This document shows, in pieces, positions 7,085-64,000 of a stretch of 64,000 nt of DNA. The translations under genes were made by a program, and so were the position numbers. Within the stretch, counting starts at the first letter, position 1, and every line of letters starts with the position of its first letter. The notes under the pieces are model-generated. The model was given only the letters and a program-made list of their open reading frames with translations. It had not been told where the DNA came from and searched no databases. This DNA is from Phyllobates terribilis. Taxonomy: Eukaryota. The stretch covers positions 262,942,001 to 263,006,000 of the forward strand of contig NW_027362762.1 of NCBI RefSeq assembly GCF_046119375.1, read 5' to 3'.

Positions 7085-7086
7085 GC

Positions 7087-8553: not shown

Positions 8554-8616
8554 CCCTCGAATTCCCTGCGGAATATTCTGGCAGGCCTGAAGAAGAGGGG
8601 GCGTAAGGGGGGGTAT

Positions 8617-11589: not shown

Positions 11590-14500
11590 CCATTCAATAC
11601 TTACTGATACTTACTCTCTTTAAGCTATGTTTCTGTTTGTTTTCACTCTCTCCCCAATAGTCCTCAACTTTCTACTAACCCCCCTAATCCCTGCACCTAG
11701 TAATAAACTCTTCATCTCTCCCTCCATCCTCCCCATCCATCTCACCTCCTCCTCAGAACTATTCCTCAATATTCACTCCTGTATCTCCAAACACAGACAG
11801 ACACTTCATGCCCTCTCCTGCTCCCACCTGCTAACAATTTCCCTGCTACTTCTCACTGTTGGCTACATCCCTCCAAGTCCTGGTCCTCCTCACCACATCC
11901 CCACAGTCACTTCCACCTTCTATCTACGATCTATCACAAACTCTCGCAACCTTTCTAACCTCATAGCCATTCACCCAGTCCCCAATTCCCCAGTCGCACT
12001 AACAGGATCTCTATGGAACGCTTTCTCCGTCTGCAACAAACTTCCCTACATTCATGATCTTTTCATCACTAACAAACTTTCCTTCCTTGCCATCACCGAA
12101 ACCTGGCTCACCTCCTCTGAAAAAGCCTCACCAGCTGCACTCTTGTACAGCAGATTCCACCTTTCCCATACCCTCTGCCCCCGCAGCAAACATGGTGGAG
12201 GCGTAGGTTTTCTCCTGTCCGATACTTGCACCTTCACCCAAATCCCACTGCCATCCTCCGTTACTCTCCCCTCTTTTGAGGTTCACTGTGTGCGCATCTA
12301 CTCCCCCTCCAACCTCCAACTGGCTGTCATTTACCGCCCCCCAGGGCCAGCCACCACCTTCTTCAACCACTTCACCACCTGGCTGCTTCATTTCCTTTCC
12401 ACTGACATTACCACTATCATCATGGGCGACTTCAACATCCCCATTGACACATCCCACTCATCTGTCTCTAAACTCCTATCCCTCACTTCCTCCTTCGGCC
12501 TTGCTCAATGGTCTTTCTCAGCCACTCACAAAGATGGCCACACACTGGACCTTGTCTTCACCCGCCTCTGTTCCCTATCAAACCTCTCTAACTCTCCTCT
12601 CCCTCTTTCTCACCACAACCTACTTACATTCTCTGCCCTCTCCTCTCCAGGTCCACAATCCCCACTTCACAAAATTGCCCACCCTCGCAGAAATCTCAAA
12701 CACCTTGACCTATACTCACTCTCTGATTCCCTCCTCTCTCTTACAGATATAAATTCCTTACACAATTCAGATGTTGCTGTTGCTTTATATAACACCACAA
12801 CAGCTGCAGTGTTAGAACCTTGCTGTTAGGTTTTTTTTCCTTTGCTGGTCACATGACCTTGTTGGCCTATTTAATCCTGCTCCGCCCTTCTGGCTTTGCT
12901 GGACTTCATTGTATATCTACTTTCTAGCTAGCCTGTGCTCTGTATCTAGCTCTGTTAGTTTGCTTGGTCTACGGACCTCTATGTTCTATCTATTTTGTTT
13001 GTTCGTCTGTCTGCTACTATTTCTGTTAGGAGGTGTCCCATATTCCTCCCAGTCCTTAGTACTTGTAGGGATTCCCTCCCCACATCTATAGGTCCCCGTA
13101 CAGACTAGATTAGGACTTTAGCAGGTCTGATCGCAGGATCAGGTTCCCTGTTACATCGTAGGGATTCAGCTGAGTCCTATAGTAGGGACAGATCTCCTCT
13201 CTTTCCTTAGCTTTGGTAGCAGAACATAACATGCAGCTCTCGATTCAGTCGCCCCTCTCACACATACCAAAGCTTGCACAATCAAAAGGCAACCCTGCCA
13301 CACCAACCTGACTAAAGAACTGGGATGGGCCTCCATGGTTGCTGAGTGAAGATGGAAAAGGTCCCATTCCAACGAGCACTTCATTGCATTCAAACAATTC
13401 CTCACTATTTTCAAGTCCAAATTCACTGCAGCAAAACAAACCTACTTCCTATCCTCCCTGTCTCACAACCCTAAACAGCTATTCAACACTTTCAATTCTC
13501 TCCTCCATCCCCCAGCGCCTCCTCCCTCTCCTCTCAGCTGAAGAATTTGCTTCATTCTTCAAGCAGAAGATTGACATCAGACAAAGCTTTTACCTAAAGT
13601 TCCCACAGCCCCTTCTCATATCTACTCAACCATCATCATCCAAAACCAACTTCTCCAACATTACAGAAGATAAAGTTTCCTCTTTACTCTCCAAATCACA
13701 CCTCACCACCTGTGAACTTGACCCAATCCCATCCCACCTCATCTCTAACCTTACCAGTCTTCATCCCAACCCTAACCCACCTCTTCAACCTATCACTAAC
13801 AACTGGTGTCTTCCCCTCATGTTTCAAACATGCCTCAATCACACCCATCCTCAAAAAGCCCACCTTGACCCATTCTCTCTGACTAGATATCGCTCCATAT
13901 CACTTCTCCCCTGTGCCTCAAAACTACTGGAACAACACGTCCACCTTGAACTGTCCTCCCACCTCTACTCCTGCTCCCTCTTCGACCTTTTACAAGCTGG
14001 CTTCTGACAGCATCACTCCACTGAAACTGTCCTGACTAAAGTCACCAACGACCTACTAACCGCCAAATCCAAGTTACACTACTTTGACTTCCTCCTCCTG
14101 GACCTGTCATCTGCCCTCGACACAGTGGACCCAATTACTACAGACTCTCATCTCTTGGCATCACGGACTTGGCCCTATCTTGGATCTCTTCATACCTAAC
14201 AGACAAGACATGCAGCATCTCCCACTCACACACCACCTCCTTATCTCACCCCATATCTGTCGGTGTTCCCCAAGGCTCAGTTCTATGGCCCCTTCTCTTC
14301 TCCATCTACACCTTTGGCCTGGGACAGCTCATAGAGTCTCATGGCTTTCAGTATCACTCCTATGCTGATGACACACAGATCTATATCTCTGGACCTGATA
14401 TCAACTCCTTACTAACCAGAATCACACAATGCCTGTCTGCTATTTCATCCTTCTTCTCTGCTAGATTTCTAAAACTTATCATGGATAAAACAGAATTCAT

Positions 14501-16260: not shown

Positions 16261-16926
16261 GGACTGACAATAAAACATTCCAAAACTAAGCTAAATTGAA
16301 TTTTCCTGGAAGAAATGTCAAGAAACATTCTTTGAAGGGTCATGACTTGTATAGAAGGCCAAATAAATTAGAAAAAAAACTATAAAACACACAGCAGGAT
16401 CTTTAGTATAAAAACCAGACTTGCCAATGTAACCACTTAATCCTTGCAAGCTTCAACACAATGTTCACAAGATAGACAGCAGCAGTGGTCGCTGTTATGT
16501 TCTGCTACCAAAGCTAAGGAAAGAGAGGAGATCTGTCCCTACTATAAGACTCAGCTGAATCCCTACGATGTAACAGGGAACCTGATCCTGCGATCAGACC
16601 TGCTAAAGTCCTAATCTAGTCTGTACGGAGACCTATAGATTTGGGGAGGGAATCCCTACAAGTACTAAGGACTGGGAGGTATATGGGACACCTCCTAACA
16701 GAAATAGTAGCAGACAGACGAACAAACAAAATAGATAGAACATAGAGGTCCGTAGACCAAGCAAACTAACAGAGTTAGATACAGAGCACAGGCTAGCTAG
16801 AAAGTAGATATACAATGAAGTCCAGCAAAGCCAGAAGGGCGGAGCAGGATTAAATAGGCCAACAAGGTCATGTGACCAGCAAAGGAAAAAAAACCTAACA
16901 GCAAGGTTCTAACAGTACCCCCCCTT

Positions 16927-19900
16927 CTAAGAGGATCCTCCGGATCCCCTAGGACCAGGCTTATCAGGAAATCTCCTGTGAAACGCTCTGATAAGTCTGG
17001 ACGCGGAAACATCATCTGACCTCACCCAAGAGTTATCCTCGGGTCCGAAACCTTTCCAGGCCACAAGATACTGCAAACTACCTCTATACCGTCTAGAGTC
17101 AAGGATGCGAGAAATTTCATATTCCCCGTCCTCCACCACCGGAGGAACAGAGGCAGAGGCGTCACCATCCGACACAAGAGCTTTTTTTAACAGAGAGACA
17201 TGAAAGACCGGATTAATTCTCCAGGAGGTAGGAACCTCCAACCTAACAGCAGATTGGTTGACAACCTGAAGCACCTTAAAGGGCCCTACAAACTTGGGAC
17301 CCAATTTCTTAGAAGGAATCCTCAACCGCAGATTCCTAGAGGACAACCAAACCATGTCACCAACAGCGAACAAAACCTCCTGTCGTTTCCTATCAAAGTA
17401 GTCTTTAGATTTTCTGTTGGCCTCCTGAAGATTACCACGCACATCCGTCCAAACTCTTTCCAAATCACCGGCTATGGGAGAAAAACTGCGAGACAAGGCA
17501 TCCGCCTTAACATTCTTAGTACCAGGGATGTAAGTAACGGAGAAATTAAACCGCGAGAAAAACAGTGCCCACCTAGCCTGACGGGCATTCAGGCGCTTGG
17601 CAGCGTCAAGATATATCAGATTTTTATGATCCGTAAGAACCTGAACGGGAAATTCCGCACCTTCCAAGAAGTGGCGCCAGTGTTCAAATGCGAGTTTAAT
17701 AGCCAATAATTCCCGATTACCAATATCGTAATTCAATTCAGTCTCCGAAAATTTTTTTGAAAAAAATGCACAGGGATGTAATCCATCCCCGTTATCCTGA
17801 GACAATACTGCGCCAACCCCCACAGAGGAAGCATCAACCTCAACCAAAAACGGCCTAGTAACATCAGGCTGCATAAGGATGGGAGCAGAGGTGAACCTCT
17901 CCTTGAGATACACAAAAGCTTCAATGGCCTCAGAAGACCACTGAACCGCATCAGCACCTTTCCTGGTGAGATCAGTCAGAGGTTTGACAATACTAGAAAA
18001 ATTTTTTATGAATTTTCTATAGTAATTGGCGAAACCCAAAAACCTCTGTATCGATTTCAAACCAATAGGCCTAGGCCATTCCTGCACAGCCCGAACCTTA
18101 ACCGGATCCATCTCAAAACCTTTGCTGGAGATAATGTAGCCCAAAAAACTAATTCTCTGTACAGCGAACTCACATTTCTCCAGCTTAGCAAAAAGCGAAT
18201 TGTCCATTAATAACTGTAATACCTCACGCACGCTCCGCCAATGAGACTCCAGATCTGGCGAATAAATCAAAATGTCATCCAAATACACAACCACATTTTT
18301 ACCGATCAAAGGTCTAAGGATGTCATTAATCAGATTCTGAAAAAATGCAGGAGCATTAGTAAGACCAAAAGGCATAACCAGATTCTCAAAATGACCCACA
18401 GGAGTGTTAAAAGCAGTCTTCCATTCATCACCCTCCTTCATGCGCAACAGATTGTATGCCCCCTTAAGGTCAATTTTAGAGAACCACTTGGCCCCCAATA
18501 ACTGGTTAAACAGATCAGGAATCAATGGCAGTGGGTAAGGATTGCGTACCGTAATTTTGTTAATCTCACGAAAATCCAGACAAGGACGTAAACCGCCGTC
18601 CTTTTTTTTTACAAAAAAAAATCCAACCGCCACAGGAGACTTAGAGGGCCTAATGTGACCGGCGGCCAAACTTGTCTGTATGTATTCCTCCAAAGCCTTC
18701 CTCTCAGGAATAGTAAGGTTAAATAAACGACTTTTAGGAAGAGTCGCTCCAGGGACAAATTCAATAGAACAATCATAGTCTCTATGAGGAGGCAAAACCT
18801 GCGATTCTTTCTCAGAAAAAACTCTCCAAAAATCCTGAATAGGAACAGGCAATTCTCCCCTATCCAAAGCTGCAATACGCCCGTTACAACACTTGTCATA
18901 ACATTTATGGCTCCAGGATTTAATTTCACTGGTAGACCAATCCAGTACAGGATTGTGAAATTTTAACCAGGGCAAACCCAATATTACTGGAGAAGGCAAG
19001 TTATTCAACACTACCAAATCCAATTTCTCATGGTGAACACCATTAATAGTGAGAGGAAATTCACTGACCTTGAGAGTAATATTCTTCAAAGGGGAGCCAT
19101 CCACAGAAACCACAGCAATGGGGGATGATAAAGGTTCAGGTTTTAAATTGAGTTTTTCCACAAATCCCCCATCAATAACATTCAGTGTAGACCCGCAATC
19201 AACAAACACCCGAAATTCCATTAATTTTTCCTGAGCAATCGTGGAAGCAGCTAAAAATATACCCTTGGAATTTAAACAGGCAATACGGGCGTGACTGACC
19301 ATTTTTTTTTCTTTCTTCATACGAAGCTCACAGCCTTTAATCAAATGACCAGATTTCCCGCAATAGAAACACAAGCCTTCTGAAAAACGACGGTGTTTTT
19401 CTTGAGAGCGAGGTGCCACCGATCCAATCTCCATCGGTTCACCACTGTTAGTACACACATTATCATAACCAGAAACTGACATAGCAGAGGATTTGCTCTC
19501 ATTAACCCTAGCACGCAGTCTTCTATCCACCCGTATAGCTAATTGCATAGCCTGTTGCAAATCCTCAGGTGTAGGATAAGCAATTAGCAGGTCTTTAACC
19601 TTTTCACTGAGCCCAGCAAGAAATAGACTTTTCAGAGCAGAATCGTTCCACCCTGTTTGAGTGGACCAACGACGAAAATGTGTACAATATTTTTCCATAT
19701 TACCTGATCCTTGTTTTAAACGTCTCAACTCAGTCTCAGCTGATGCCACACGGTCAGGATCATCATATAATAGTCCTAAAGCAGAAAAAAAACTATCCAC
19801 TGATCTGAAGCATGTATCACTAGGTTGCAAAGAAAAGGCCCACTCCTGAGGCTCTTTGCGCAAAAGTGACATTATGAACCCTACGCGCTGGGATTCATCC

Positions 19901-20109
19901 CCAGAGGACTTGGGTCTCAAACGAAAATACAATAAGCAAGCATTTTTAAATGAAAAAAATTCTCGATGTTCACCAAAAAATAAATCCGGCAAACATACCT
20001 TAGGCTCCAAGAAATATGCTCCAGGACAGTTACTCACGTGCTGACGGAGCTCGGCCACTTCCAGAGAGAGTCCCTGCAGGTGTTTAGCCAAATCCTGAAC
20101 CGACACCAT
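16927..20109 (-). CDS. Gag-protease-RT-RNase H-GPY/F-chromodomain polyprotein, 1060 aa, lacking IN zinc finger and catalytic core
   Basis: Gag (RVGFIMSLLRKEPQEWA), CCHC CFYCGKSGHLIKGC, PR FVDCGST, RT YLDDILIY, and RNase H VDASSVGVGAVL..TDHKNL..KADALSR. This is joined directly to VGDMVWLS..GPKFVGPF..FHVSLLK and the chromodomain YEISRILDSR..YLVAWKGFGPEDNSW. Confidence 0.93.
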   Translation of the reverse strand: MVSVQDLAKHLQGLSLEVAELRQHVSNCPGAYFLEPKVCLPDLFFGEHREFFSFKNACLLYFRLRPKSSGDESQRVGFIMSLLRKEPQEWAFSLQPSDTCFRSVDSFFSALGLLYDDPDRVASAETELRRLKQGSGNMEKYCTHFRRWSTQTGWNDSALKSLFLAGLSEKVKDLLIAYPTPEDLQQAMQLAIRVDRRLRARVNESKSSAMSVSGYDNVCTNSGEPMEIGSVAPRSQEKHRRFSEGLCFYCGKSGHLIKGCELRMKKEKKMVSHARIACLNSKGIFLAASTIAQEKLMEFRVFVDCGSTLNVIDGGFVEKLNLKPEPLSSPIAVVSVDGSPLKNITLKVSEFPLTINGVHHEKLDLVVLNNLPSPVILGLPWLKFHNPVLDWSTSEIKSWSHKCYDKCCNGRIAALDRGELPVPIQDFWRVFSEKESQVLPPHRDYDCSIEFVPGATLPKSRLFNLTIPERKALEEYIQTSLAAGHIRPSKSPVAVGFFFVKKKDGGLRPCLDFREINKITVRNPYPLPLIPDLFNQLLGAKWFSKIDLKGAYNLLRMKEGDEWKTAFNTPVGHFENLVMPFGLTNAPAFFQNLINDILRPLIGKNVVVYLDDILIYSPDLESHWRSVREVLQLLMDNSLFAKLEKCEFAVQRISFLGYIISSKGFEMDPVKVRAVQEWPRPIGLKSIQRFLGFANYYRKFIKNFSSIVKPLTDLTRKGADAVQWSSEAIEAFVYLKERFTSAPILMQPDVTRPFLVEVDASSVGVGAVLSQDNGDGLHPCAFFSKKFSETELNYDIGNRELLAIKLAFEHWRHFLEGAEFPVQVLTDHKNLIYLDAAKRLNARQARWALFFSRFNFSVTYIPGTKNVKADALSRSFSPIAGDLERVWTDVRGNLQEANRKSKDYFDRKRQEVLFAVGDMVWLSSRNLRLRIPSKKLGPKFVGPFKVLQVVNQSAVRLEVPTSWRINPVFHVSLLKKALVSDGDASASVPPVVEDGEYEISRILDSRRYRGSLQYLVAWKGFGPEDNSWVRSDDVSASRLIRAFHRRFPDKPGPRGSGGSS

Positions 20110-20147
20110 GATGGAACAAAAAAAATCTTTCCTTAGAGAATTTACAG

Positions 20148-20156
20148 GCTGGACTT
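20148..20156 (-). promoter_or_regulatory. Putative self-priming primer-binding site of element B
   Basis: Minus-strand AAGTCCAGC lies 2 nt after the 5' LTR and is complementary to GCTGGACTT, which starts at 20492, 30 nt after TATTTAA (20522). Confidence 0.72.
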
Positions 20157-21590
20157 ACTGTTATGTTCTGCTACCAAAGCTAAGGAAAGAGAGGAGATCT
20201 GTCCCTACTATAAGACTCAGCTGAATCCCTACGATGTAACAGGGAACCTGATCCTGCGATCAGACCTGCTAAAGTCCTAATCTAGTCTGTACGGAGACCT
20301 ATAGATTTGGGGAGGGAATCCCTACAAGTACTAAGGACTGGGAGGTATATGGGACACCTCCTAACAGAAATAGTAGCAGACAGACGAACAAACAAAATAG
20401 ATAGAACATAGAGGTCCGTAGACCAAGCAAACTAACAGAGTTAGATACAGAGCACAGGCTAGCTAGAAAGTAGATATACAATGAAGTCCAGCAAAGCCAG
20501 AAGGGCGGAGCAGGATTAAATAGGCCAACAAGGTCATGTGACCAGCAAAGGAAAAAAAACCTAACAGCAAGGTTCTAACAGTCGCTTCCCTAGACACGGC
20601 ACATCATGGTTTGATATGAGCACCCAGTGCCAGAGGCGAAGCCATCCACAATTTCCATATCTCAGGAATTGTATTTGGTAGACTGGCTGCTGTGGGGATT
20701 CCTACTAACTTGAGAGCATCGTCGTCAATGTTCACAAGGTAGACAGCAGCAGTGGTTGCTCCCCTAGACAACGAGCAAACTTCTTCGTGATGGTAGAAGC
20801 CACCATCTCCTTAGCTTGCTGCTTGGTACTTTTCTGTGGGAATGAGCTTGGCTCCAAGCAGCCAGGCATATGCAGCGAATTGCACGTCATGGTTTGGTAT
20901 GAGTACCCAGTACCAGAGGCGAAGCCATCCACAATTTCCATGTCTCAAGAATTTTATTTGGTAGACTGGCTGCTGTGGGGTTTCTACTCACTTGGGAGCA
21001 TCGGTAGTCAAAACAGGAAGCGTTTCCATTTAAAGGTCCATTCTGGTTTATTGCAGTGTCATGAACTAGCCATAAGCAATGGAAAATAAACAGCCTTCTG
21101 TTCAGGCAAACAAAGTAAACAGTTCTTTAGGCAAAGTCTATTGAGAACCAGTCCTAGTCACACGGCTGTAAAGCATCCAGTACACCGGCTCAGTTTGCAG
21201 ATACCACACAGAAGGACCTCTTCCTCCTCACACAGAGACCATGTGTCAAACAATGGACTCCATTTTACCTAGCTAACCACACCCAGAGGTGATGTATGTG
21301 GGTAACCAGACCCGCCCATCTCTTTGGCTACCTGTAAAACCTGGGCCTAGATGCACCAAACAATCCTCTTATTGCTTATCTGCTGTAGACCAATATTCCA
21401 GGATTATATCACAGGCAACAGCCATCTTTGTGACACATACCTACCATCCACTATGTGTCCATTAGCCACCTTACATTGCCAAAACATTAGTTTCTCACAA
21501 AGGAGCTGAAGACACTGAGTGGCAGTAGGTGCAAGTTTCTCCAGCATGAGCTGTTTGTTAAATATCAGAGGGAGAACAGAATTGGGCTTT

Positions 21591-24609: not shown

Positions 24610-25620
24610 ATGGGTCAGATGAGAGATTTGACAGGCTCTGAAAAGTCCAAAATTGTGAGATGTCTTGCAGAGGGATGCAGCAGTCTTGAAATTTCCAAAC
24701 TTTTGAAGCGTGATCACCGAACAATCAAGCGTTTCATGGCAAATAGCCAACAGGGTCACAAGAAGCGTGTTGGCCAAAAAAGGTGCAAAATAACTGCCCA
24801 TGAATTAAGGAAAATCAAGCGTGAAGCTGCCAAGATGCCATTCGCCAGCAGTTTTGCCATATTTCAGAGCTGCAACGTTACTGGAGTATCAAAAAGCACA
24901 AGGTGTGCAATACTCAGGGACATGACCAAGGTAAGGAAGGCTGAAAAACGACCACCTTTGAACAAGAGACATAAGATAAAACATCAAGAATGGGCCAAGA
25001 AATATCTTAAGACTGATTTTTCAAAGGTTTTATGGACTGATGAAATGAGAGTGACTCTTGATGGGCCAGATGGATGGACTAGAGGCTGGATCAGTAAAGG
25101 GCAGAGAGCTCCACTCCGACTCAGACGCCAGCAAGGTGGAGGTGGGGTACTGGTATGGGCTGGTATCATCAAAGATGAACTTTTGGGACCTATTCGGGTT
25201 GAGGATGGAGTGAAGCTCAACTCACAGACCTACTGCCAGTTATGGAAGGCAACTTCTTCAAGCAGTGGTACAGGAAGAAGTAGGTATCGTTCAAGAAAAA
25301 CATGATTTTCATGCAGGACAATGCTCCATCACATGCATCTAGCTACTCCACAGCGTGGCTGGCTAGTAAAGGTCTAAAAGAAGAAAAAATAATGACATGG
25401 CCCCCTTGTTCACCTGATCTGAACCCCATAGGAAACCTGTGGTCCATCATAAAATGTGAGATCTACAGGGAGGGAAAACAGTAAACCTCTCGGAACAGTG
25501 TCTGGGAGGCTGTGGTGGCTGCTGCACGCAATGTTGATCGAAAACAGATCAAGCAACTTACAGAATCTATGGATGGCAGGCTGTTGAGTGTCATCATAAA
25601 GAAAGGTGGCTTTATTGATC
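24610..25620 (+). pseudogene. Tc1-B transposase with frameshift and stop
   Basis: MGQMRDL...VLWTDEMRVTLDGPDG...VWAGI, frameshift near 25230, then MQDNAPSH...SPDLNPIGNLW. Confidence 0.9.
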
Positions 25621-30959: not shown

Positions 30960-33785
30960 AGAACACCACTATTGAACACAGAGCAGTGAGAAAAAGTTAT
31001 TGGTTGGATAGCAGATAATGCTTCCAGTCACTTAGCCACCACCATCACCACCCTGTCTTCCACACGGTCAAGTCTCAGTAGCCTTGATCTTGGACTGCAT
31101 ATTCCTCACCCTGATCCTCCTTCCTCACACCATGCCGAGTGCCCAGAGACAACTGTTCTCACACTTGGATACTTCGAAGAGCTGTTCACTTTTCCATTTA
31201 TAGATTCGGGCCTCTCGCCCGGTCCACTTGAAGCAGGGGCAAGAGGAGATCGCATGTAGCAATGCCCAAGTGTCACAAGAGGTGGACGATGATGAGACAC
31301 AATTGCCAGAAAGTCAGGAGGAGGACCAGGGTGCGGAACGAGATGGAAGTTGCCAGTACAACTGTTAGGTCTTCCCGAGTCTGGTTGTTTATTAAAGACT
31401 CTGCCGATAACCCCAAAAAGGCCATTTGCACCACCTGCCAGGCCAGCATCAGCAGGGGTAGCAAAACTACCAGCCTGACCACCACCAGCATGATCAGGCA
31501 CATGGCAGCAAAACACCCGACTTTGTGGGACATACCCCAGGGTCCAGGAACAATGTCTGCGGGTGGCACCACTGCTTCTTCCGCTGTTGTGCATGCAAGC
31601 CAATCCCCTGTACATGGTGCATGCGAAGATGCCTCCTGCCTTGCACCTGTCAATGCACACTCTCAAGTAGCAGCATCAGGAAGCACGTCCACGTCCTTGT
31701 TTCAGCGTAGCATTCAGTTGTCCATATTCCAGTCCTTGGAATGCAAGCACAAATACGCAGCCAACGCCCCACAGGCCACAGTACTAAATTCTCACATTTT
31801 GCGACTGCTTGCGCTCGAAATGTTGCCTTTTAGGCTCATGGAGACGGAAACTTTCTGCAACCTGATGGCGGCGGCCATCCCTCGGTACTCATTCTCCAGC
31901 GGCCACTATTTCTCCCGGTGTGCCGTCCCCGCATTGCACAAGCACGTGTCCCACAACATTAGCCATGCCCTCAACAATGCACTTAAAGGGAAAGTCCTCC
32001 AAACCACCGACATGTAGACAAGTGCTTGTGGGCAAGGATGGTACATCTCACTGATGGCACACTGGGTTAACATAGTGAAAGTCGGGACCCAGTCGGACCT
32101 TGGGACGGAACACATCCTCCCGATGCCAAGGATTGCTGGCCCTAGGTCAATCAGGGTTGCCCTCACAGTCTACAGCTCCTGCATCTCATCCTCCTCAGCC
32201 TTCTCCTCATCTTCAGCCTCCATCTCTGAAATTACCACATCAGTCACAAGCTGGAAGCTCTGCAGCAATGCCTCAGCTAAGCGGCAACAGTCTGTGCTGA
32301 AGCTAATATGCTTAGGTGAAAAAACGCACAATGCTGAAGAGTTGTGGACAGCTCTGAAAGAGCAGGCAAATCTGTGGCTCATATCGCTGAACCTGCAGCC
32401 TGGCATGGTCATGTGTGACCAAAACTTACCTGGAGCTGCTGGATCTGCTTGACAAAGAACGCCACCTGTGTGCCCATTTTAGAAAGTCACCCACAGCTTC
32501 CGCCGCCCTTGCCGTGCTTTTGCAGCTTCCAGCTCACTGACTGGTGTGTAATGTCCCCACGCATTGGAACTCTACACTGCAGATGTTGGGAAGGATTTGT
32601 GAGCAGAAGAGGGCAGTTGTTGACAACCAGCATCAACAAGGCCGTCAATATTCAGTTCAGACTGCACACATAAGACCTCAGGAGTGGACATGGATGTCAG
32701 ATATCTGTACCATCCTCCAAAACTTTGAGGACTCCACCAAGATGGTGAGTGGCGATGATGCCATAATTAGCATCACCATCCCACTTCTCTGTCTTCTGAA
32801 ATGCTCTCTGCTCACAATCAAAGAGGTTGCATTGCAAGCGGAGCACAATGAGAAGGAGCAAGGAACCATACAGGCTGATTACACACTGCCCAGCCTCATC
32901 TCATCCCAACGTGGATTGGGTGACACTAAGGAGGAGGAGGAAGAACAGGAGCTAGTTTTCTGCACTATAGACGGTACTACCTACACAACTGTCATACCGT
33001 CTGTTCAGCGTGGATGGCCTGAGGACAGGGAGAAGGAGGAGAGCATGGTCAGTCATCCTCTTGATGAGGACATGGACGTCTTGCCTGTTAGCAGTCTGGC
33101 ATGCATGGCTGAGCTTATGTTACGCTGACTTTCCCGTGACCCTCGCGTTCTCAAAATTTTGGGTGACATCTATTTCTAGTTTGTGATACTTGTAGACCCA
33201 CGCTACAAGGAGAACTTTATATCTCTTATTCCTGAGGTGGACAGGTCTACAAAAATGGGGCAGCACCAAAAGGCCCTTGTTGTGGAACTATTAAAAAAAT
33301 TCCCATCTGAAAACGCTGGCGGCAGAGGTCACAGTTTGTTGGACAACCAAGGAGTACAGCCGAGAGAGACGCAACTCCAATCCAGCAGAGGCAGGGAAAC
33401 ACTGTCAAATTTCTGGGAGAGTTTTCTCAGCCTCTCTCATCAAACAGGCCCTGAGGCGCGGGGTACTCTCACAAGGAGTGCAAAGTTTGGGAAGATGCTG
33501 AGGGAGTACCTTACCAACCGTACCAACGTCCTCTGTGATTCTTCTGTGCCTTATAATTATTAGGTATCCAAGCTGGACATGTGGAATGAACTGACTCTCT
33601 ATGCCTTGGAGGTCCTGGCCTGCCCTGCCGCTAGCGTTTTATCAGAGTGGGTTTTTAGTGCCGCTGGTGGAATTATAACTGATAAGCGCATCCACCTGTC
33701 AGCTGAAAATGCTGACAGGCTGACTCTTATAAAAATGAACAAGGGCTGGATTGGGCCAGACTTCTCAACAAAACTGAATGATAGC
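30960..33785 (+). pseudogene. hAT transposase pseudogene
   Basis: BED finger (VWLFIKDS..AICTTCQASISRG..MIRHMAAKH), MLPFRLME, TTD, THWNSTLQML, LVDPRYK and CPAASVLSEWVFSAAG. Several stops and frameshifts. Confidence 0.9.
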
Positions 33786-48691: not shown

Positions 48692-51600
48692 ATGAATGGA
48701 AAAAGGCCTGCTGCTGGTGGAAAGGGGAATAGGCGTGTTGGGAAGGGGAAAAAAGGTTGTGTCCGTGGGGTAGGTGCAGAAGAAAGACCATCTTCCAGCC
48801 AAACTAAAATGTCTACTTCTTTTAGCGGACAATGTGATAAGATCCCTTTCTTACGGCCACGCCAATCGCTACAAATTCCAGATGAGGCACAAAAACAGCA
48901 GGTGCTTCAACGGATATCAAGTGCTCCTTTAAGTGGGCTCTCCTCCACATCAACTTCAACATCACAAATACTCCAGTCCTCAAAGGTGTCACCCAAATCG
49001 CACTTGCTTCCTCACAGCTCCCAAATCTCCAGCTGCCCGTCTGAGTATGAGGTAGAACAGATGGTTGAGTCTGCAGAGCTGTTTACTCATACTATAGCCT
49101 GGGAATCAGAGGTCGACTCCAGCGCTTCTGTGAATCCAGACGAGGAAATGATCTGCACTGATGCCCAGAATCTTTATGAGTCGGATCCAGGACCAGACGC
49201 AGAAGGTTCTGACCATAATGTAGACCCTCATTCCCAAACTGTAACTCCTGTTGGTGGAGACAATGAGGAAGACGATGATAAGACTCAAATACCTGATTGG
49301 AGCGACAACTTTGTTTTTTTGTCAGGGCAGGAACAGGTTGGCTCTGAGGACGACGGGTGTGATAACGCACAGGGTGATGATGATGAGGTCGGAGATCCCA
49401 CTTACTGTCAACCCACAGTCAGCCAAGAGATGAGGTCAGCAGAGGAGGTGGAGGAAGATGCTAGTGACGACGAGGTCAGGTTGCGCCTTCCTGGACAGAG
49501 ACGTAGTACTGGAAGCACGTCAACAACTGCATCCTCAAACACAACTCTGCCTCTCACCACAAGTCGTGGTGGCTCTTCAGGTCGCATGGGTGCTAAGCCT
49601 TGCATAGCCTGGGCATTTTTTCAGATCGATAAAGATGACCCAACTCGTGTTATCTGTAACATTTGTCAGCAAAAGCTAAGTAGAGGCCAAAAATACATAG
49701 TTTGAGTACTTCATGCATGAACCGGCACATGGACATGAAGCATAAGTTGCAGTGGGAAGCTCAGTGTGCTACAATGCGGTCTAGCCGGCCGGGCCAACCA
49801 CCGTCTGCCATATCTTGTGCATCCGCGGCCTCTTCATCCTCTGTGACTGGGGGGACAGCAGTCACACCTGTTTTGGGGCGCAGACCTGCCACCTCTTTAC
49901 CCGCAACAGCCAGCGTGATTGGCAGGTCATCATTTTCTTTGGAGGTGGTAACACCAGCTGGTCTTGAGCGCTGTCCGACATCGATAGCACCACCTTTGGA
50001 TCAAGGCAACCTAACATGTCCGCCTGCATCTTCCTCACAGACCGGCAGTTTGCCGGGGACACCCTTATCAACCCCGTCTAAGCACAATAGCCAGCCCTCG
50101 GTCCCTCAGATATGGACAAGTAAAAGACCATTTCCTCCTAGCCATGAGAAAGCTAAGAGGTTGAATTTCACCATCTGCAAGCTCTTGGCTACAGAAATGC
50201 TGCCTTTCCGCCTGGTGGACACAGAGGATTTTCGAGACCTTATGTCCGTCGCAGTGCCCCAGTACCAGATGCCCAGTCGGCACTACTTCTCAAAGAAAGG
50301 TGTGCCTGCGCTCCACCAGCATGTCGCACACAACATCACCGCTTCTTTGAGAAACTCTGTGTGTGACAGGGTGCATTTCACCACAGACACTTGGACGAGT
50401 AGGCATGGACAGGGGCGTTACATGTCGCTGACTGGGCACTGGGTAACTATGGTGACAGCAGGACAAGGGGCTGCTGTCCGAGTCTTGCCGTCCCCACGAG
50501 TTGTGCGTCAATCCTCTTTATGTCATTTTTCCTCCACTGCTTCTGCCTCCTCAACCTCCTCTCGGTCTTCCACCTGCACATAAAGCCTGTCTGGTCATGC
50601 CACAAGCTTTCTAACTGCGCAGAAGGGATCCTGCACACCTCCTTACTATGCTGGCAGTAGGGCTCAACGTCATCAGGCGGTTTTTACATTGAAATGTCTG
50701 GGAAATATGAGTCACACAGCTGAGGAGTTGTGGTCAGCTCTGGAGAACCAATTTCATGAATGGTTGTCTCCACTGGACCTGAAACCAGGGAAGGCCGTGT
50801 GCGACAATGCTGCAAACCTGGGTGCGGCCCTTCGCCGGGGCAATGTCACACATGTGCCTTGTATGGCTCACGTGTTGAACCTGGTTGTCCAGCAATTTTT
50901 AGCCCACTATCCCAGACTAGATGGCCTTCTGCAGAGGGCACGGTCGCTGTGTGCTCACTTCCGCCGTTCGCATCCCGCAGCTCAGCGACTTACATCTCTA
51001 CAGAAGTCGTTGGGCCTGCCACTTCACCGGCTAAAATGCGATGTGCCTACCCGGTGGAATTCAACTCTGCACATGTTGCAGCGACTGTGGCAGCACCGAC
51101 AAGCCCTGGTGCAATACGTTCTGACGTATAGCCTGGGCCAACGAGATTCAGAGGTGGGGCAAATCACGCTGGAGGAGTGGTCTCAGATCAGGGACTGATG
51201 CACCCTTCTGCACAGTTTTGAAATGGCGACGAAGATGTTTAGTGCTGACGATGCCATTATCAGCATGACTATTCCGGTGATTTACATGCTGGAGCACATG
51301 TTAAACAGAATTCGGAGTCAGGTGGTGGCACAAGAGGAGGTGGAGGAAGTAGAGGAGGAGGAGTTGTATGCGGAAGGGCTAACATCTGCAAGGTCCAGAC
51401 GGTCGGCAGCACCAAGGCGGCAGGCATGTGAGGGTGGGGGAGATGGTTTAACCAGGGCGCATGGTAGCAGCCAAACTAGTGAGGAAGGTGCAGGAGCCCA
51501 GGAAGAAGTGGAGGACGAACTGATGGAAGACTCATCAGATGAGGGAGACCTTGATCACATTTCTGTTGTGCGAGGTTGGGGGGAGAGGACAGAGGAAGGA

Positions 51601-52370
51601 AGCATGATTGTTACCTCGCCACCAACACAACAGGGACTTGGTGCTCCTGGATGCGCAACACACATGAGTGCCTTCTTGCTGCACTACCTGCAACATGACC
51701 CTCGAATTGTGAGAATTAGAAATAATCCTGACTACTGGGTTGCCACACTGTTAGATCCCCGGTACAAAAGTAAATTTGCTGAAATTATTCCTGCCATAGA
51801 AAGGGATGCACGCATGCAGGAGTATCAGCAGAGACTGTTGCAGAATCTTACATGTGCTTTTCCACAAAATACCAGTGGTGCACGTAGTGAATCTCACAGT
51901 TCCAACTTGCCAACCGTGGACCGTCAAGTGTTCAGCACTCAAACCGTAACAGAACCACAGTATCTGCAGGTAACATCAATTTTGCGGAATCATTTCACCA
52001 CTTTTTTAGCCCATCCTTTGCAAGGCCACAGGAGACAAGAAGTCTGACACATAGTCAACGCCTAGAGACGATGGTACAGGAGTATCTCCAAGTAAACATT
52101 GAAGCCACGACTGTGTCACTGGACCCTTGCTCTTTTTGGGCTTCCAATCTGGATAAATGGCCGGAGCTAGCCACTTACGCCTTGGAGATCTTGTCATGCC
52201 CCGCAGCCAGCGTTCTGTCTGAACGTGTGTTCAGCGCTGCTGGTGGTGTGCTGACAGATAAGCGCACGCGGCTCTCCACTGATAATGTAGACAGACTCAC
52301 GTTCATAAAGATGAACAAATCATGGATCCGAAACGACTTTTCTACCCCTGTGTCATCCTGGGGAGAGTAA
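48692..52370 (+). pseudogene. Near-complete hAT transposase with few disruptions
   Basis: Basic N-terminus, BED finger (AWAFF..VICNICQQKLSRG / MNRHMDMKH), FTTDTW, VCDNAAN, PCMAHVLNL, PTRWNS, LLDPRYK and CPAASVLSERVFSAAG. A few stops and frameshifts. Confidence 0.92.
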
Positions 52371-58450: not shown

Positions 58451-59775
58451 TATAAAAAAGTATTTACTGTAAATATACATGAAAACTAAAAAAAAAAGAT
58501 AGCTAAACAAGGTGATGACATTTTATTTTACACCCACTATATCTCACAAAAAGTAATCTATATGGAACCATTTTGCTGAAAAAGATGCATTAATAAATCA
58601 ACTTTTCCGTAAAGATGCGATTTGATTTTGGCAAAACATTTTACAAATGAGCAGATCTGACAAAATTCGAATTTGCTAAATCTCGCACATTTTCCCACAA
58701 AATGCAATTTGCAGTTATTCTCCATGAACTGAATGTCCCTTATTGTGCTCTGGGACCTCTTCTTTCCCCTGTCGTGAGCTGCATCTCCTGGACTATTCAC
58801 TCTAGGCCGGGACTTCTGGCAGTGACCAGGTCTCGGAGATCAATACTTGTACATTCTGAGATCACGCATGTGAGACGGACAGTGAACTCTGAGGCTTGGT
58901 CACTCCCAGAAGTCTAGGCCATGAGTGAACAGGCTGGAGCTACAGGCCAGGACTTCCAGGCCTCAAATGTCATTACATGTCACACGCCCATGATGTTGTG
59001 ATTTGCTTCATGCAGTGACTTCAGAGGACTAGAGTGTACAGGCTTGGAGATGCTGCTTGCAATAAGGGAATGAAGAGATAGCTGTGAGGACTAGTTGGAG
59101 GGCAATGTGCAGCAGAAGGTCTGGACAGGTGAATGGTGAGTATAATTACTTTTTTAAACTTTTGTTGTCTGTCTATAGTTCAGCAAAATCACAGCCATCC
59201 ACTATTATGCTGAATCCATGTAAAGCGAATTTTCAAACACCATATTTTCAAAAATGTGCACTTTTTTAATATTCAAGTACAATTTAATTACAATCAAATA
59301 AATTGGCTCATCTCTAGAATTGAGAAAACCTAGCCACCCACAAGTCAATCAATAATTATTGCATATTGGCCCAAGCTCACAAAGGTTACAAGGTTTATTG
59401 TAATATCAAACTCATTTAGATATTCATTACAGAAAATCTACATTTGAAGAAGCCGAGCGCTGTGCTAATGATTTTTAAAGTCTGAAGACAATAAATGCTA
59501 ATTTCATACTAATGAGGCCTTAAAATGTCTATTTATAATGATTTCATAATTCCTCAACTCCATAAATCACTAAAAGAATCTTCAATAATTCATTAGGAAA
59601 ATTACAAAAAAAATTTGTATAATTCTGTTTATTTAGTTAAAAGACACAAAGTGTCTTTTAACTAAACAGAATTAAATGAACTGAAAAATGCCTGCTATAT
59701 GTAAAAAAAAAAGAAAAAAAGCCATATGACAATTATGTAGTAACATATCATGTGACTTTTTATTATAATGCCCAT

Positions 59776-60942
59776 TGTAACGGGTCCGGGAGGCGGAACC
59801 TCTGAGCTACTATACAAGGGGGCGGCCCTTGTAAGGGAGCGGGTGGCAGTCTCTGGATGAATGGACAGGGAGATACGGCAAGTGATCAGGGCAGTCTCTG
59901 GGTGAACGGACAGGGAGATACGGCAAGTGATCAGGGCAGTCTCTGGGTAAGGGGTAGGTACGACCTGTGATGGCAGAGCCTCCGGGTAGGCTAGCAGGCA
60001 GATGGTAGATGGGTGCTCCCAGGTGAGCAAGCGAGAGTCTCTGGAATAGCAGGTGGTCACGGCACGTGACGGCGGGGCCTCCGGGCTGGCAGGCAGGCAG
60101 GTAACGGAGAAGCGCTCCCAGGTGAGCGGGCAAGAGTCTCTGGAATAGCTGGTGGTCACCGCACGTGACAACGGGACCTCCGGGCTGGCAAGCAGGCAGG
60201 TAACGGAGATGCGCTCCCAGGTGAGCGGGCAAGAGTCTCTGAGATAGCTGGTGGTCACAGCACGTGACAACGGAGCCTCCGGGCTGGCAAGCAGGCAGGT
60301 AACGGAGAAGCGCTCCCAGGTGAGCGGGCAAGCTGGTCCATAGACAGACTGACCGGAGTAGTAAAGCAGACCGTCGGACCTCAGGCAAGCAGGCAGGTAG
60401 CTGATATGCGCTCCCAGGTGAGCGGGCAGGCTGGTCCTTAGACAGACTGACAGGAGTAGTAAGGCAGACCGTCGGACCTCAGACTGGCAGACAGGTAACA
60501 AGTATTCAGGCAGGAATCAGGCAGGTAACTGGCAGGTAACTGGCAGGTAACTGGCAACGGGACCTGAGGGCTGAAGCACAGGTGAGACACAGGTGCAAAC
60601 AACATTGCTCGGGCACCTCCATTTTGGAGGAGGTGCCTTTTATATGATGAAGTCCTCCGGCCATTGGCCGGGGACTCTTTAGGGCGGCGCGCGCGGCCCC
60701 TTTAAGAGGAGGGGAGCACGCGCGCGCGCGCCCTAAGCACAGGGGCCGGGAAGGAGCGCGCGCCGAGAGCAGAGCAGGAGGAGGACGCCGGGACGGAGCG
60801 CGCGCTGACAGCAGAGCGGGGAGAGGACGCCGGGCAGGAGCGCGCGCTGACAGCAGAGCGGGGAGAGGACGCCGGGCACGGAGCAGAGCGGTGAGGGGAG
60901 CAGCGTCCCTGCCTAGCAGAGGGCAGGGACGCCAGCGCTACA
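59776..60942 (-). repeat. 3' LTR of element C (1167 bp) with 99-bp and ~40-bp internal repeats
   Basis: TGTAACGGG...GCGCTACA. Minus-strand TATAAAA at 60644-60638. Confidence 0.93.
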
Positions 60943-63185
60943 GTACCCCCCCCTTTAGGCCCCCCCTTTTTTAGGCCAGACAGAAATTTAGCTAGGATGA
61001 GAGGGGCATGGATGTTCTCCCGGGGCTCCCACGTTCTCTCCTCAGGACCAAACCCCCTCCAATCTACCAGAAAAAAGGTCTTTCCTCTTACCCTTTTGCT
61101 GGCAAGAATGTTCTCTACCTCAAACTTGTCCTCAGCAGAAACCAGAGCAGGAGGCGTACCTGTAGACTTAGAAAAAGAGTTAAGTACCACAGGTTTGAGG
61201 AGAGATACATGGAAGGAGTTAGGGATCCGTAAGTTGGCCGGGAGTTTCAATTTATAGGTTACCGGGTTGATCTGACCGATGACCACCAGTGGGCCGATGA
61301 ACCGAGACCCTAACTTATAGGAAGGGATCTTGAGTCGGACATATTTGGACGAGAGCCAGACTTTATCCCCAGGACGGAATTGAGGAGGGTCCATCGCTAA
61401 ATGCTGCCAGGGGGCAGCAGGTACTGGCAGAGGAAGAAGGCGGCCGGCCGACAGGTGTCTCGGAACTTTGTTGCGGGCGCAGGACACACAGGCAGAAACA
61501 AAGTCCATAACATCCTTGTGCAGGTTAGGCCACCAGTAGTGTCGGGTAATAAGCTGGAGGGTCTTTTTCCGACCGGCGTGGTCAGCTAGTTTAGACGAAT
61601 GACCCCAGTGTAGGATTCTCTCCCGATCAGGTACCGATACGAACGTCTTACCAGGAGGGAGACAATTTAGACTCACGGGAGCCACCTGCATTACTCTGGC
61701 GGGATCGATGGGGCAGTCACATGGTCTATGAGGTGGTGATGTCTCTGCCTCCTCCTTAACAAAGACATCAGCACTAGACCAATAAGGAATCGGAAGTCCA
61801 GGTAGATTAGCTGGGATAGGAGAGGGACGGACGGAATGGACGGGAACCAGGCAGGTTTTATGACAGGCCTGTCCCCAGTGAAGGACTTCTCCGGTTTGCC
61901 AGTCAAGCACGGGTGCATGTCTCTGGAGCCAAGGCAGACCTAGCAAGAGGGCGTGAGGGAGACCAGGCAGAACGTGAAAGGAGATACTCTCTGAATGCAG
62001 CATTCCCACCTGCAGAGTAATGGATTCGGTGATGAATTGGATGGGGCGAGGTAAGAGGCCCCCATCCACGGCAACAACAGACAAGGGTACAGCCAGAGGT
62101 TTGGTGGGGATGCGGAATTTCTCCACCAGGGACTGTGAAATAAGATTTCCGGCTGCTCCAGAGTCAAGTTGGGCTAGTTCGGAATAACGATTCTCCCCGC
62201 AGATGATTGAGACTGACAACAGCAGGGATGGAGAGGATTTATTTTTGTCTAGATCGACCCCTCTGAGTGAACCTAGATACAGGCGTTCTCCCGACCTCTC
62301 CGGGCAGGCACGGATCAGATGCTCCTTACTGCCACAGTAGAAGCAGCTCCCCTCGGCACGGCGGAAATCCTGACGGGATTTGACCATCTTGGTCTGGTCG
62401 ACCTGCATAGGCTCAGGAGAGTGTACCTGTGGAGAAACGGAAGGAATGACGGGTTCCTGGAAAGTAGGAGCTAGACGTGGAATCCTTCTCTCACGGGTGA
62501 CCTCTTTGGCACGCTCCTGGAACCGTAGGTCAATCCGGGTGGCAAGGGTTATTAGATCATCGAGAGTGGTAGGAATGTCCCGACCAGCAAGTTCATCTTT
62601 AATACGGCCGGACAGACCCTCCCAGAAGACGGATACCAGGGCTTCGTTATCCCAGGCCAGCTCCGAGGCAAGGGTACGGAACCGTATGGCATATTGGCCC
62701 ACGGTGAGGCTTCCCTGACGGAGGCGAAGCAGAGAAGATGCGGATGAGGTCCTCCGTCCGGGTTCGTCGAAGGCTTTCCGGAAAGCCATGAGAAAGGCAG
62801 GCAAGTCGGACACCAGGGGATCTCCTCTCTCCCATAGAGGATTTAGCCAGGCCAGGGCCTCCCCGGTGAGATGGGACATGATAAAGGCAATTTTGGCTCG
62901 GTCGGAGTTAAACTGGTGGGATAATAGTTCAAAATGCAGGGTGCACTGATTTATGAAGCCCCGAGCCAGGACGGAGTCGCCTCCGAAGCGAGGAGGTGCA
63001 GAGAGCCGGGGTCCGGAAAAGGATACCATGGTACTGGCGGAGGTTGTTGGTGGATCAGACAGAGTGTTCAGGCGAGTATTAACATTCCGCAGGTGACCCA
63101 GGATGGTCTCCTGTTGGGACCTCTGACGGGACAGTTCAAGACAGAGGTCCGAGAGCGAGGGAGCTTGGGTGCCACCGGGTTCCAT
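60702..63185 (-). CDS. Gag-protease-IN zinc finger-GPY/F-chromodomain fusion, 827 aa (RT, RNase H and IN core deleted)
   Basis: Gag (DRAKIAFIMSHLTGEALAW), CCHC CFYCGSKEHLIRAC, PR LDSGAAGNLI, RT start PPHRPCDCPID, IN HHCC (HSSKLADH..CVSC), PWQHLAMD joined to PPQFRPGDKVW, and the chromodomain FEVENIL..LVDWRGFGPEERTWEP. Reads through the PPT into the 3' LTR. Confidence 0.92.
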   Translation of the reverse strand: MEPGGTQAPSLSDLCLELSRQRSQQETILGHLRNVNTRLNTLSDPPTTSASTMVSFSGPRLSAPPRFGGDSVLARGFINQCTLHFELLSHQFNSDRAKIAFIMSHLTGEALAWLNPLWERGDPLVSDLPAFLMAFRKAFDEPGRRTSSASSLLRLRQGSLTVGQYAIRFRTLASELAWDNEALVSVFWEGLSGRIKDELAGRDIPTTLDDLITLATRIDLRFQERAKEVTRERRIPRLAPTFQEPVIPSVSPQVHSPEPMQVDQTKMVKSRQDFRRAEGSCFYCGSKEHLIRACPERSGERLYLGSLRGVDLDKNKSSPSLLLSVSIICGENRYSELAQLDSGAAGNLISQSLVEKFRIPTKPLAVPLSVVAVDGGLLPRPIQFITESITLQVGMLHSESISFHVLPGLPHALLLGLPWLQRHAPVLDWQTGEVLHWGQACHKTCLVPVHSVRPSPIPANLPGLPIPYWSSADVFVKEEAETSPPHRPCDCPIDPARVMQVAPVSLNCLPPGKTFVSVPDRERILHWGHSSKLADHAGRKKTLQLITRHYWWPNLHKDVMDFVSACVSCARNKVPRHLSAGRLLPLPVPAAPWQHLAMDPPQFRPGDKVWLSSKYVRLKIPSYKLGSRFIGPLVVIGQINPVTYKLKLPANLRIPNSFHVSLLKPVVLNSFSKSTGTPPALVSAEDKFEVENILASKRVRGKTFFLVDWRGFGPEERTWEPRENIHAPLILAKFLSGLKKGGPKGGGTVALASLPSARQGRCSPHRSAPCPASSPRSAVSARSCPASSPRSAVSARSVPASSSCSALGARSFPAPVLRARARVLPSS

Positions 63186-63198: not shown

Positions 63199-64000
63199 TG
63201 TAACGGGTCCGGGAGGCGGAACCTCTGAGCTACTATACAAGGGGGCGGCCCTTGTAAGGGAGCGGGTGGCAGTCTCTGGATGAATGGACAGGGAGATACG
63301 GCAAGTGATCAGGGCAGTCTCTGGGTGAACGGACAGGGAGATACGGCAAGTGATCAGGGCAGTCTCTGGGTAAGGGGTAGGTACGACCTGTGATGGCAGA
63401 GCCTCCGGGTAGGCTAGCAGGCAGATGGTAGATGGGTGCTCCCAGGTGAGCAAGCGAGAGTCTCTGGAATAGCAGGTGGTCACGGCACGTGACGGCGGGG
63501 CCTCCGGGCTGGCAGGCAGGCAGGTAACGGAGAAGCGCTCCCAGGTGAGCGGGCAAGAGTCTCTGGAATAGCTGGTGGTCACCGCACGTGACAACGGGAC
63601 CTCCGGGCTGGCAAGCAGGCAGGTAACGGAGATGCGCTCCCAGGTGAGCGGGCAAGAGTCTCTGAGATAGCTGGTGGTCACAGCACGTGACAACGGAGCC
63701 TCCGGGCTGGCAAGCAGGCAGGTAACGGAGAAGCGCTCCCAGGTGAGCGGGCAAGCTGGTCCATAGACAGACTGACCGGAGTAGTAAAGCAGACCGTCGG
63801 ACCTCAGGCAAGCAGGCAGGTAGCTGATATGCGCTCCCAGGTGAGCGGGCAGGCTGGTCCTTAGACAGACTGACAGGAGTAGTAAGGCAGACCGTCGGAC
63901 CTCAGACTGGCAGACAGGTAACAAGTATTCAGGCAGGAATCAGGCAGGTAACTGGCAGGTAACTGGCAACGGGACCTGAGGGCTGAAGCACAGGTGAGAC
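63199..64000 (-). repeat. 5' LTR of element C (partial)
   Basis: Direct repeat of 59776-60577. Confidence 0.95.

What the first reader, a model, noticed from the sequence alone, without database searches (positions are those of the whole stretch)
60702..63185. Element C: two independent in-frame deletions leave a Gag-PR-zinc finger-chromodomain protein
Seen: junction 1 (~61705, DCPID|PARV) removes RT and RNase H. Junction 2 (~61390, LAMD|PPQF) removes the IN core right after its first catalytic Asp. The ORF stays open for 827 codons and the LTRs are identical over the visible 800 bp. Inference: both joins fall on short Asp-codon microhomologies. Repeated frame preservation suggests selection for a particle-forming, self-processing protein that keeps only the non-catalytic IN domains, i.e. 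a coding parasite or dominant-negative of autonomous chromoviruses.
Basis: partly seen in the sequence, partly recalled or inferred. Interest (0 to 1): 0.8.

Follow-up and report, generated by a model that had tools for sequence, protein, structure and literature searches.

The report
Helper-dependent jumping gene, fused frame
This is one of about 450 very young copies of a stripped-down jumping gene that has lost its copying and inserting enzymes and rides on intact relatives; it keeps one unbroken reading frame, but the leftover enzyme pieces in that frame are decaying, so the open frame or the capsid part, not those pieces, is what seems to matter.

Summary
Real and amplified. Both junctions are exact microhomology deletions from an autonomous Tf1/sushi-type chromovirus of the same genome: 1,323 bp (8-bp repeat) and 597 bp (5-bp repeat). 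Junction 2 has 452 hits; 20 of 20 fetched loci have their own 5-bp TSD. (1) The parent makes Pol by a -1 frameshift, and the ORF is single only because one extra base in the slippery site joins gag and pol. (2) The deletions are nested: 943 copies carry junction 1, and a sister subfamily (482) has another in-frame integrase deletion instead of junction 2. Frame-keeping looks favoured (0 of 5 inherited indels disrupt, against 9 of 12 one-offs; p=0.009, post hoc). But on the window's branch the protease, zinc finger, SH3 and chromodomain evolve neutrally (5 synonymous:15 replacement; parent 113:26). That argues against selection for those domains. Best reading: a helper-dependent element whose RNA gains in cis from unbroken translation and/or its Gag, as reported for mouse IAP 1Δ1. 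Neutral drift remains possible. Earlier scan notes (unchecked) describe similar internal deletions in fungal chromoviruses.

The parts
59771..59775 (.). 5-bp target-site duplication, left copy (right copy at 64355-64359, beyond the window end)
   Evidence: on locus L031
59776..60942 (-). 3' LTR, 1,167 bp, TG...CA, with 42-, 11-, 98/99- and 45-bp tandem arrays
60605..60614 (-). Self-primer sequence (3' LTR copy), about 30 nt downstream of a TATA-like box at 60636-60644; complementary to the PBS over 10 nt
   Evidence: sequence; priming function inferred from Tf1 (10.1101/2022.12.06.519325, passages)
60702..60942 (-). ORF tail read into the LTR repeats; length varies between copies; inherited from the parent
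60946..60972 (-). Polypurine tract
   Evidence: sequence
60984..61124 (-). Chromodomain (aa 688-734)
61188..61370 (-). Tf2-1-like SH3 (GPY/F) domain (aa 606-666), 4 subfamily-specific replacements in or just after it
61389..61393 (-). Junction 2: 597-bp in-frame deletion of the integrase core at a 5-bp microhomology; 452 genomic hits
61464..61628 (-). Integrase HHCC zinc finger (aa 520-574)
61703..61710 (-). Junction 1: 1,323-bp in-frame deletion of RT and RNase H at an 8-bp microhomology; 943 genomic hits
61920..62171 (-). Aspartic protease (aa 339-422), D-S-G motif kept
62285..62292 (-). Former -1 frameshift slippery site with one extra base (62288) that joins gag and pol frames; 979 genomic hits; downstream hairpin weakened
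62289..63185 (-). Gag (capsid aa ~77-216, CCHC knuckle aa 280-296)
60702..63185 (-). Single fused ORF, 827 codons
63187..63196 (-). Primer-binding site of self-priming type
63199..64000 (-). 5' LTR (1,156 bp, continues to 64354 beyond the window)

Best explanation
A non-autonomous, helper-dependent subfamily (C2) of an abundant Tf1/sushi-type chromovirus. History (shown by comparison): in one lineage of the autonomous family an extra base in the slippery site joined gag and pol, and RT-RNase H was lost; the order of these two is unresolved. That lineage split into C1 (108-bp integrase deletion) and C2 (597-bp integrase deletion), each amplified recently to about 450-480 copies. Mobilisation (inferred): LTRs, self-priming PBS and PPT are intact, so the RNA is packaged with helper proteins, reverse-transcribed and integrated by the helper's RT and IN. 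Gag mosaics with autonomous copies fit co-packaging. Why the frame stays open (inferred, not shown): translation from the gag start to the LTR helps the RNA in cis, either because no stop codon is left far upstream of the 3' end (escape from nonsense-mediated decay) or because its own Gag moiety escorts it into particles. In C2 the protease, zinc finger, SH3 and chromodomain are passengers that only have to stay in frame.
For: 452 junction-2 hits, 943 junction-1, 979 fused-site, 482 sister-junction. 20 of 20 C2 loci have distinct matching TSDs, LTR-LTR median 1 substitution. 71 of 73 other C2 copies and 34 of 37 C1 copies are open through the chromodomain. C1+C2 form one 100/100 clade nested in the autonomous family in the protease tree. 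0 of 5 inherited indels disrupt the frame against 9 of 12 one-off indels in sampled parents, p=0.009. The extra base lies in a 49-nt gag/pol overlap. The frameshift hairpin is weaker in both subfamilies (-11.5/-11.9 against median -15.1 kcal). C2 branch: Gag CA-NC 6 syn:2 rep (omega 0.11, p 0.005-0.011) against pol-derived 5:15 (omega 1.02); difference p=0.03. Precedent: IAP 1Δ1 fusion acts in cis (PMC6466679, PMC7411935, passages); RSV RNA needs a stability element after the gag stop (PMC2925335, passages).
Against: The frame test is post hoc and rests on 5 events. The three deletions alone have p about 0.08, and the lack of fixed stops among 60 pol changes has p=0.14. Slippery runs may be indel hot spots (recalled). 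The Gag signal is confounded by recombination: synonymous distance C1-C2 is 0.119 in CA-NC against 0.067 in pol parts. Shared variants inside the C2 burst look neutral also in gag (1 syn:3 rep). Element B in the same window is a single-copy in-frame deletion, so open frames do arise once by chance. One C2 copy (L048) lacks the gag start yet has a clean TSD. Ty1 shows no cis-preference for packaging (PMC3945221, passages). The C1 branch still shows constraint in pol parts (10:6, omega 0.20), which 'passenger' does not explain. No translation or expression was shown.
Confidence: 0.5

Rival explanations
1. Neutral founder effect: template switching at microhomologies made the deletions, they were in frame by chance, the extra base is a slip at a homopolymer-like site, and the lineage spread because of its LTR, short length or well-placed source copies. 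Coding plays no part.
For: 39-46% of microhomology pairs in the parent's pol are in frame. Pol-derived omega about 1 on the C2 branch; within-burst variants neutral. Star-like young bursts mean few founders. Single-copy in-frame deletion in element B. L048 has no start codon.
Against: All 5 inherited indels leave one frame. The only inherited 1-bp indel falls in the 49-nt overlap with the sign that joins the frames. Gag CA-NC omega 0.11 on C2 and pol omega 0.20 on C1.
Confidence: 0.28
2. One reading: a coding parasite selected to make a self-processing Gag-PR-zinc finger-chromodomain protein whose retained domains work (particle formation, binding to helper integrase or chromatin).
For: Protease D-S-G, CCHC and HHCC residues are kept, and no replacement at 11 checked key positions was seen in 72 copies. 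Both sister lineages lost integrase-core sequence but kept zinc finger, SH3 and chromodomain. C1 pol omega 0.20.
Against: C2 branch: protease 2:6, zinc finger 1:3, SH3-chromodomain 2:6 syn:rep. 10 of the 15 replaced pol positions are invariant in the sampled parents. SH3 score 69 to 59.7. A 1:1 Gag:protease ratio departs from the ~20:1 that retroelements need (PMC2194720, passages), so particles on its own are unlikely (inference).
Confidence: 0.13
3. Dominant-negative or host-favoured restriction factor against the autonomous family (Ty1 p22-like).
For: A fused Gag-protease product could disturb helper particle stoichiometry (inference from PMC2194720 passages). Trans-dominant Gag-derived factors are known for Ty1 (PMC4599808, search listing only).
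Against: It spreads as hundreds of dispersed selfish copies with LTRs, not as one fixed locus. The helper has 15,797 unfused slippery-site hits, and 3 of 17 measured copies have identical LTRs. No constraint on the pol-derived part.
Confidence: 0.07
4. Assembly artefact or splice-derived retrocopy.
For: None found.
Against: Hundreds of copies with distinct TSDs. Both junctions are bridged in contigs of 2 of 4 public runs laid, and the extra base in 2 of 4. No GT..AG at either junction.
Confidence: 0.01

Closest known systems
Tf1/sushi group of chromoviruses (Ty3/gypsy, Metaviridae)
   Same: Chromodomain at the integrase end, self-priming-type PBS, GGGAAAC -1 frameshift site in the parent as in PEG10 (10.1101/2022.12.06.519325 and PMC10570562, passages).
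   Different: RT, RNase H and integrase core are gone; the frameshift is hard-wired; non-autonomous.
Mouse IAP 1Δ1 subfamily
   Same: Amplified non-autonomous subfamily whose internal deletion yields one gag-pol fusion ORF and which needs full-length helpers; the fusion is reported to help in cis (PMC6466679, PMC7411935, passages; primary paper PMC2413153 not held).
   Different: IAP is a class II ERV and its fusion arises from one 1.9-kb deletion through gag and pol. Here Gag is complete, the fusion comes from an extra base at the slippery site, and two or three nested deletions followed. A cis effect is untested here.
Plant TR-GAG elements
   Same: LTR elements that move without RT or IN and keep one ORF with Gag (PMC8704663, passages).
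   Different: TR-GAG ORFs encode Gag only; this ORF adds protease and integrase remnants. If those are passengers, C2 works like a TR-GAG.
PEG10 and RTL1/PEG11 (domesticated sushi-like genes)
   Same: Gag-protease content without working RT/IN; RTL1 has also lost the frameshift and has gag and pol in one ORF (PMC10570562, passages).
   Different: Those are single-locus, LTR-less host genes. This is a mobile multi-copy element.

Membership tests
Tf1/sushi chromovirus (derivative of) | Chromodomain at the C-terminus of integrase | tested here: met
   PF00385 in the window ORF and in the parent pol
Tf1/sushi chromovirus (derivative of) | Self-priming: PBS complementary to the RNA 5' end | tested here: met
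   10-nt complement about 30 nt after a TATA-like box in the LTR; sequence only, start site not mapped
Tf1/sushi chromovirus (derivative of) | Gag-Pol by -1 frameshift in non-yeast members | tested here: met
   Parent: gag and pol in frames 0/-1, heptamer in 41 of 44 sampled copies (30 loci were chosen by that site), hairpin downstream; frameshifting itself not assayed
Tf1/sushi chromovirus (derivative of) | TG...CA LTRs, PPT, 5-bp TSD | tested here: met
Tf1/sushi chromovirus (derivative of) | Placement by RT phylogeny with named members | not tested
   No tree with named references was built
IAP 1Δ1-like coding non-autonomous subfamily (works-like) | Amplified deletion derivative with one gag-pol fusion ORF | tested here: met
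IAP 1Δ1-like coding non-autonomous subfamily (works-like) | Autonomous helper of the same family present and active | tested here: met
   activity inferred from identical LTRs in 3 of 17 copies
IAP 1Δ1-like coding non-autonomous subfamily (works-like) | Translation of the fusion needed in cis for mobility | not testable with these tools
   Only indirect frame statistics
IAP (membership) | Class II ERV ancestry | tested here: not met
   Ty3 capsid, Tf2-1 SH3 and chromodomain hits
TR-GAG | Single ORF encoding Gag only | tested here: not met
   Protease and integrase remnants in the same ORF
Gag-derived restriction factor (Ty1 p22 type) | Inhibits the autonomous element in trans | tested here: inconclusive
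   Helper remains abundant and young; no direct test
Domesticated sushi-like gene (PEG10/RTL1 type) | Single LTR-less locus under purifying selection | tested here: not met
   452 LTR-flanked copies; pol-derived omega about 1

The most novel reading that the evidence does not exclude
The hard-wired frameshift is an adaptation. By turning every translation event into a Gag-Pol-like polyprotein, the lineage became a coding parasite that enters helper particles by the Gag-Pol route with its own RNA attached. Its two sister subfamilies then separately discarded integrase function while keeping the frame, and C1 still uses some pol-derived domains.
Probability: 0.15. Interest if true: 0.72.

Novelty: new variant of a known kind. 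Interest (0 to 1): 0.45.

Why it matters
Whether defective LTR retrotransposons must be translated to be mobilised is known mainly from mouse IAP 1Δ1, and Ty1 points the other way. Here one genome holds a graded natural series (about 15,800 unfused copies, about 480 C1, about 450 C2), which makes the question testable by counting and by RNA data. It also shows that a long open ORF with tidy domains is no proof that those domains are selected. My literature searches listed no report of a chromovirus subfamily with a hard-wired slippery site; the library lacks most subscription journals and I did not search repeat databases.

Tried and rejected
A pattern for an undeleted copy with the window's exact junction-1 left flank found 0 hits: no immediate precursor with those alleles survives in the assembly. 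No intermediate with only the extra base, or with junction 1 and a whole integrase, was seen in 40 loci examined; junction 2 plus the sister junction (934) accounts for nearly all junction-1 hits (943). Whether junction 2 arose on top of the 108-bp deletion cannot be told, because it spans it. Splicing was rejected (no GT..AG). An autonomous source for C2's gag alleles was not found: a C2-specific 40-mer has 436 hits, nearly all at C2 positions in the listed part; an extinct donor is not excluded. A shared-versus-singleton test for stops had no power: 1 stop among 72 singleton changes, 0 among 14 shared. Expression: no RNA holder listed; runs X1 and X2 are RNA only by guess, so one search shows presence of the junctions, not transcription. 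About 37 further copies that I asked for could not be fetched, so counts rest on 74 C2 and 37 C1 copies, all from contigs C1 and C2 and chosen by exact motif match (the first 20 by 100% identity over 501 nt). Autonomous sample: 44 copies for gag-protease, 19 for integrase; L082 and L048 were dropped from codon counts (no gag start found). No structure or complex prediction was run. Saito 2008 (PMC2413153) was not held; no supplements were read. Labels for other elements of the window are recalled.
Full report
Setting. The window lies on contig C2 of a 10.57-Gb genome. From size and element type I take it to be an amphibian; that is inference, not tested. The element runs on the minus strand from 64354 (beyond the window) to 59776, 4,579 bp, between two copies of a 5-bp TSD. 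The LTRs (1,156 and 1,167 bp) differ by one 11-bp repeat unit and 2 substitutions.

Observation. The 827-codon ORF is real and holds Gag, protease, integrase zinc finger, SH3 and chromodomain but no RT, RNase H or integrase core. An autonomous family was found by a pattern for the integrase start (9,487 hits at up to 2 mismatches). In 20 fetched copies gag and pol mostly lie in separate frames, 17 had both LTRs measurable (median 3 substitutions, 16 of 17 with matching TSD), and identity to the window's element is 88-97% by region. Junction 1 deletes 1,323 bp at an 8-bp repeat and junction 2 deletes 597 bp at a 5-bp repeat; neither has splice ends. The parent's pol has RVT_1, RNase H and rve where these deletions fall.

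The parent has a GGGAAAC slippery site with a downstream hairpin, the same heptamer that PEG10 uses (PMC10570562, passages). In the window's element one extra base at 62288 joins the two frames. It lies in a 49-nt overlap, the only place where such a base would do so, and the hairpin is weaker in both derived subfamilies. So the long ORF needs three events, not two.

Copy numbers and order. Whole-genome pattern counts at up to 1 mismatch: fused site 979, junction 1 943, junction 2 452, unfused site 15,797. In the first 862 Mb of contig C1, 48 of 49 exact junction-2 hits have an exact junction-1 hit beside them; the other has one substitution there. Copies with junction 1 but not junction 2 form a sister subfamily, C1. 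All 37 fetched carry the extra base, the RT-RNase H loss and a different in-frame deletion of 108 bp at an 8-bp repeat, just after the D-D-E region; that junction has 482 hits. C1 and the window's subfamily C2 are about 4% apart in protease and about 7% from the nearest parent, and form one 100/100 clade inside the autonomous family (43 parents, 10 C1, 10 C2). All 20 C2 loci fetched whole have distinct matching TSDs and a median of 1 LTR-LTR substitution; C1 has a median of 2, with matching TSDs read in 27 of 34. Both C2 junctions are bridged in public runs X1 and X2, and the extra base is seen in X1 and X6, so this is no assembly error.

Is the frame selected? 71 of 73 other C2 copies and 34 of 37 C1 copies are open through the chromodomain, but they are too young for that to mean much. 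Frame changes in the purine tract after the chromodomain occur in 3 C2 and 3 C1 copies. In the parent's pol, 46% of 8-bp and 39% of 5-bp repeat pairs are in frame, so two in-frame deletions have p about 0.18 and three about 0.08. Stronger: none of 5 inherited indels of the C lineage breaks the frame, while 9 of 12 one-off indels in sampled parents do (p=0.009; I left out two truncations, purine-tract changes and subfamily-level indels). This test is post hoc. Element B of the same window is a single-copy in-frame deletion, a reminder that chance does this too.

Are the domains selected? Fixed changes were assigned to branches using the sampled parents. C2 branch: protease 2 synonymous:6 replacement, zinc finger 1:3, SH3-chromodomain 2:6; total 5:15, omega 1.02, against 113:26 among parents (p=9e-7). 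Ten of the 15 replaced positions are invariant in the sampled parents, and the SH3 score falls from 69 to 59.7 bits. Gag CA-NC on the same branch is 6:2 (omega 0.11; p 0.005-0.011; against pol p=0.03). That signal is confounded. Gag mosaics with autonomous copies exist (L033, L149, L160), and synonymous distance between C1 and C2 is higher in gag (0.119) than in pol parts (0.067), though a C2-specific gag 40-mer has only 436 hits. The replacement deficit in gag alone has p=0.05. Against a pure passenger model, the C1 branch shows 10:6 in pol parts (omega 0.20, p 0.002-0.007), and the common stem 8:11 (omega 0.47). All counts are small.

How it most likely works. Shown: intact LTRs, self-priming-type PBS and PPT; recent independent insertions; no RT or IN; an abundant helper; sequence exchange with the helper. 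Inferred: the RNA is packaged with helper Gag-Pol, primed, copied and integrated in trans. Inferred and untested: unbroken translation helps the RNA in cis. One route is RNA stability: RSV RNA decays when sequence after the gag stop is removed (PMC2925335, passages), and a fused frame would leave no early stop. The other is cis escort by the fusion, as reported for IAP 1Δ1 (PMC6466679, PMC7411935, passages). Ty1 shows no cis-preference (PMC3945221, passages), so this is not general. A 1:1 Gag:protease product is unlikely to build normal particles alone (PMC2194720, passages; inference).

Comparison and novelty. It descends from a Tf1/sushi chromovirus (chromodomain, self-priming PBS, -1 site met; RT tree not built; 10.1101/2022.12.06.519325, passages). 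It may work like IAP 1Δ1 or a plant TR-GAG (PMC8704663, passages) but is a member of neither. Three earlier scan notes describe internally deleted fungal chromoviruses (unchecked); none concerned this sequence. My nine literature searches listed no chromovirus subfamily with a hard-wired slippery site, within the limits of the library. Verdict: a real, young, amplified non-autonomous subfamily; a new variant of a known kind; interest 0.45, mainly because the graded series makes the cis-translation question testable.

Noticed in passing
window 16492-20582 (-): Element B: another chromovirus with identical 425-bp LTRs and a 1,060-codon ORF Gag-PR-RT-RNase H-SH3-chromodomain lacking the integrase zinc finger and core; its junction has 1 hit in the genome. 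A third LTR-like copy (98%) lies at about 25791.
   Followed up: partly
window ~4796-10431 (+): LTR-like pair (97%) with 39-bp arrays around a 454-codon ORF (7189-8553) whose only Pfam hit is DUF4939, followed by a 57-aa repeat; possibly a Gag-only non-autonomous element.
   Followed up: no
G000:C1:187.48-187.50 Mb (L119-L123, L149); L049: Head-to-tail arrays sharing LTRs: five C1 units in a row; a two-unit C2 array inside one TSD.
   Followed up: partly
L048: C2 copy with a ~298-bp deletion just after the PBS that removes the gag start, yet with a clean TSD.
   Followed up: partly
L033, L118, L124, L139, L149, L160: Mosaics between C2, C1 and autonomous copies, mostly in gag, as expected from co-packaging and template switching.
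   Followed up: partly
L100:3684-3806 and L100:5685-5924: Public contigs show two more well-covered variants of the family: 63 bp replaced by 11 plus a nearby 1-bp insertion at the same depth (net 51 bp) in the RT-RNase H region, and a 238-bp skip in 5' gag. They may be further derivatives and would be useful controls.
   Followed up: no
LTRs of C copies: LTR length varies from 890 to 1,308 bp through tandem arrays, often equal at both ends of one copy.
   Followed up: no
window 24610-25305, 31262-33128, 48692-52047, 11627-12829: ORF remnants that look like a Tc1 transposase, two hAT-type transposases and a LINE endonuclease (labels recalled from the translations, not searched).
   Followed up: no
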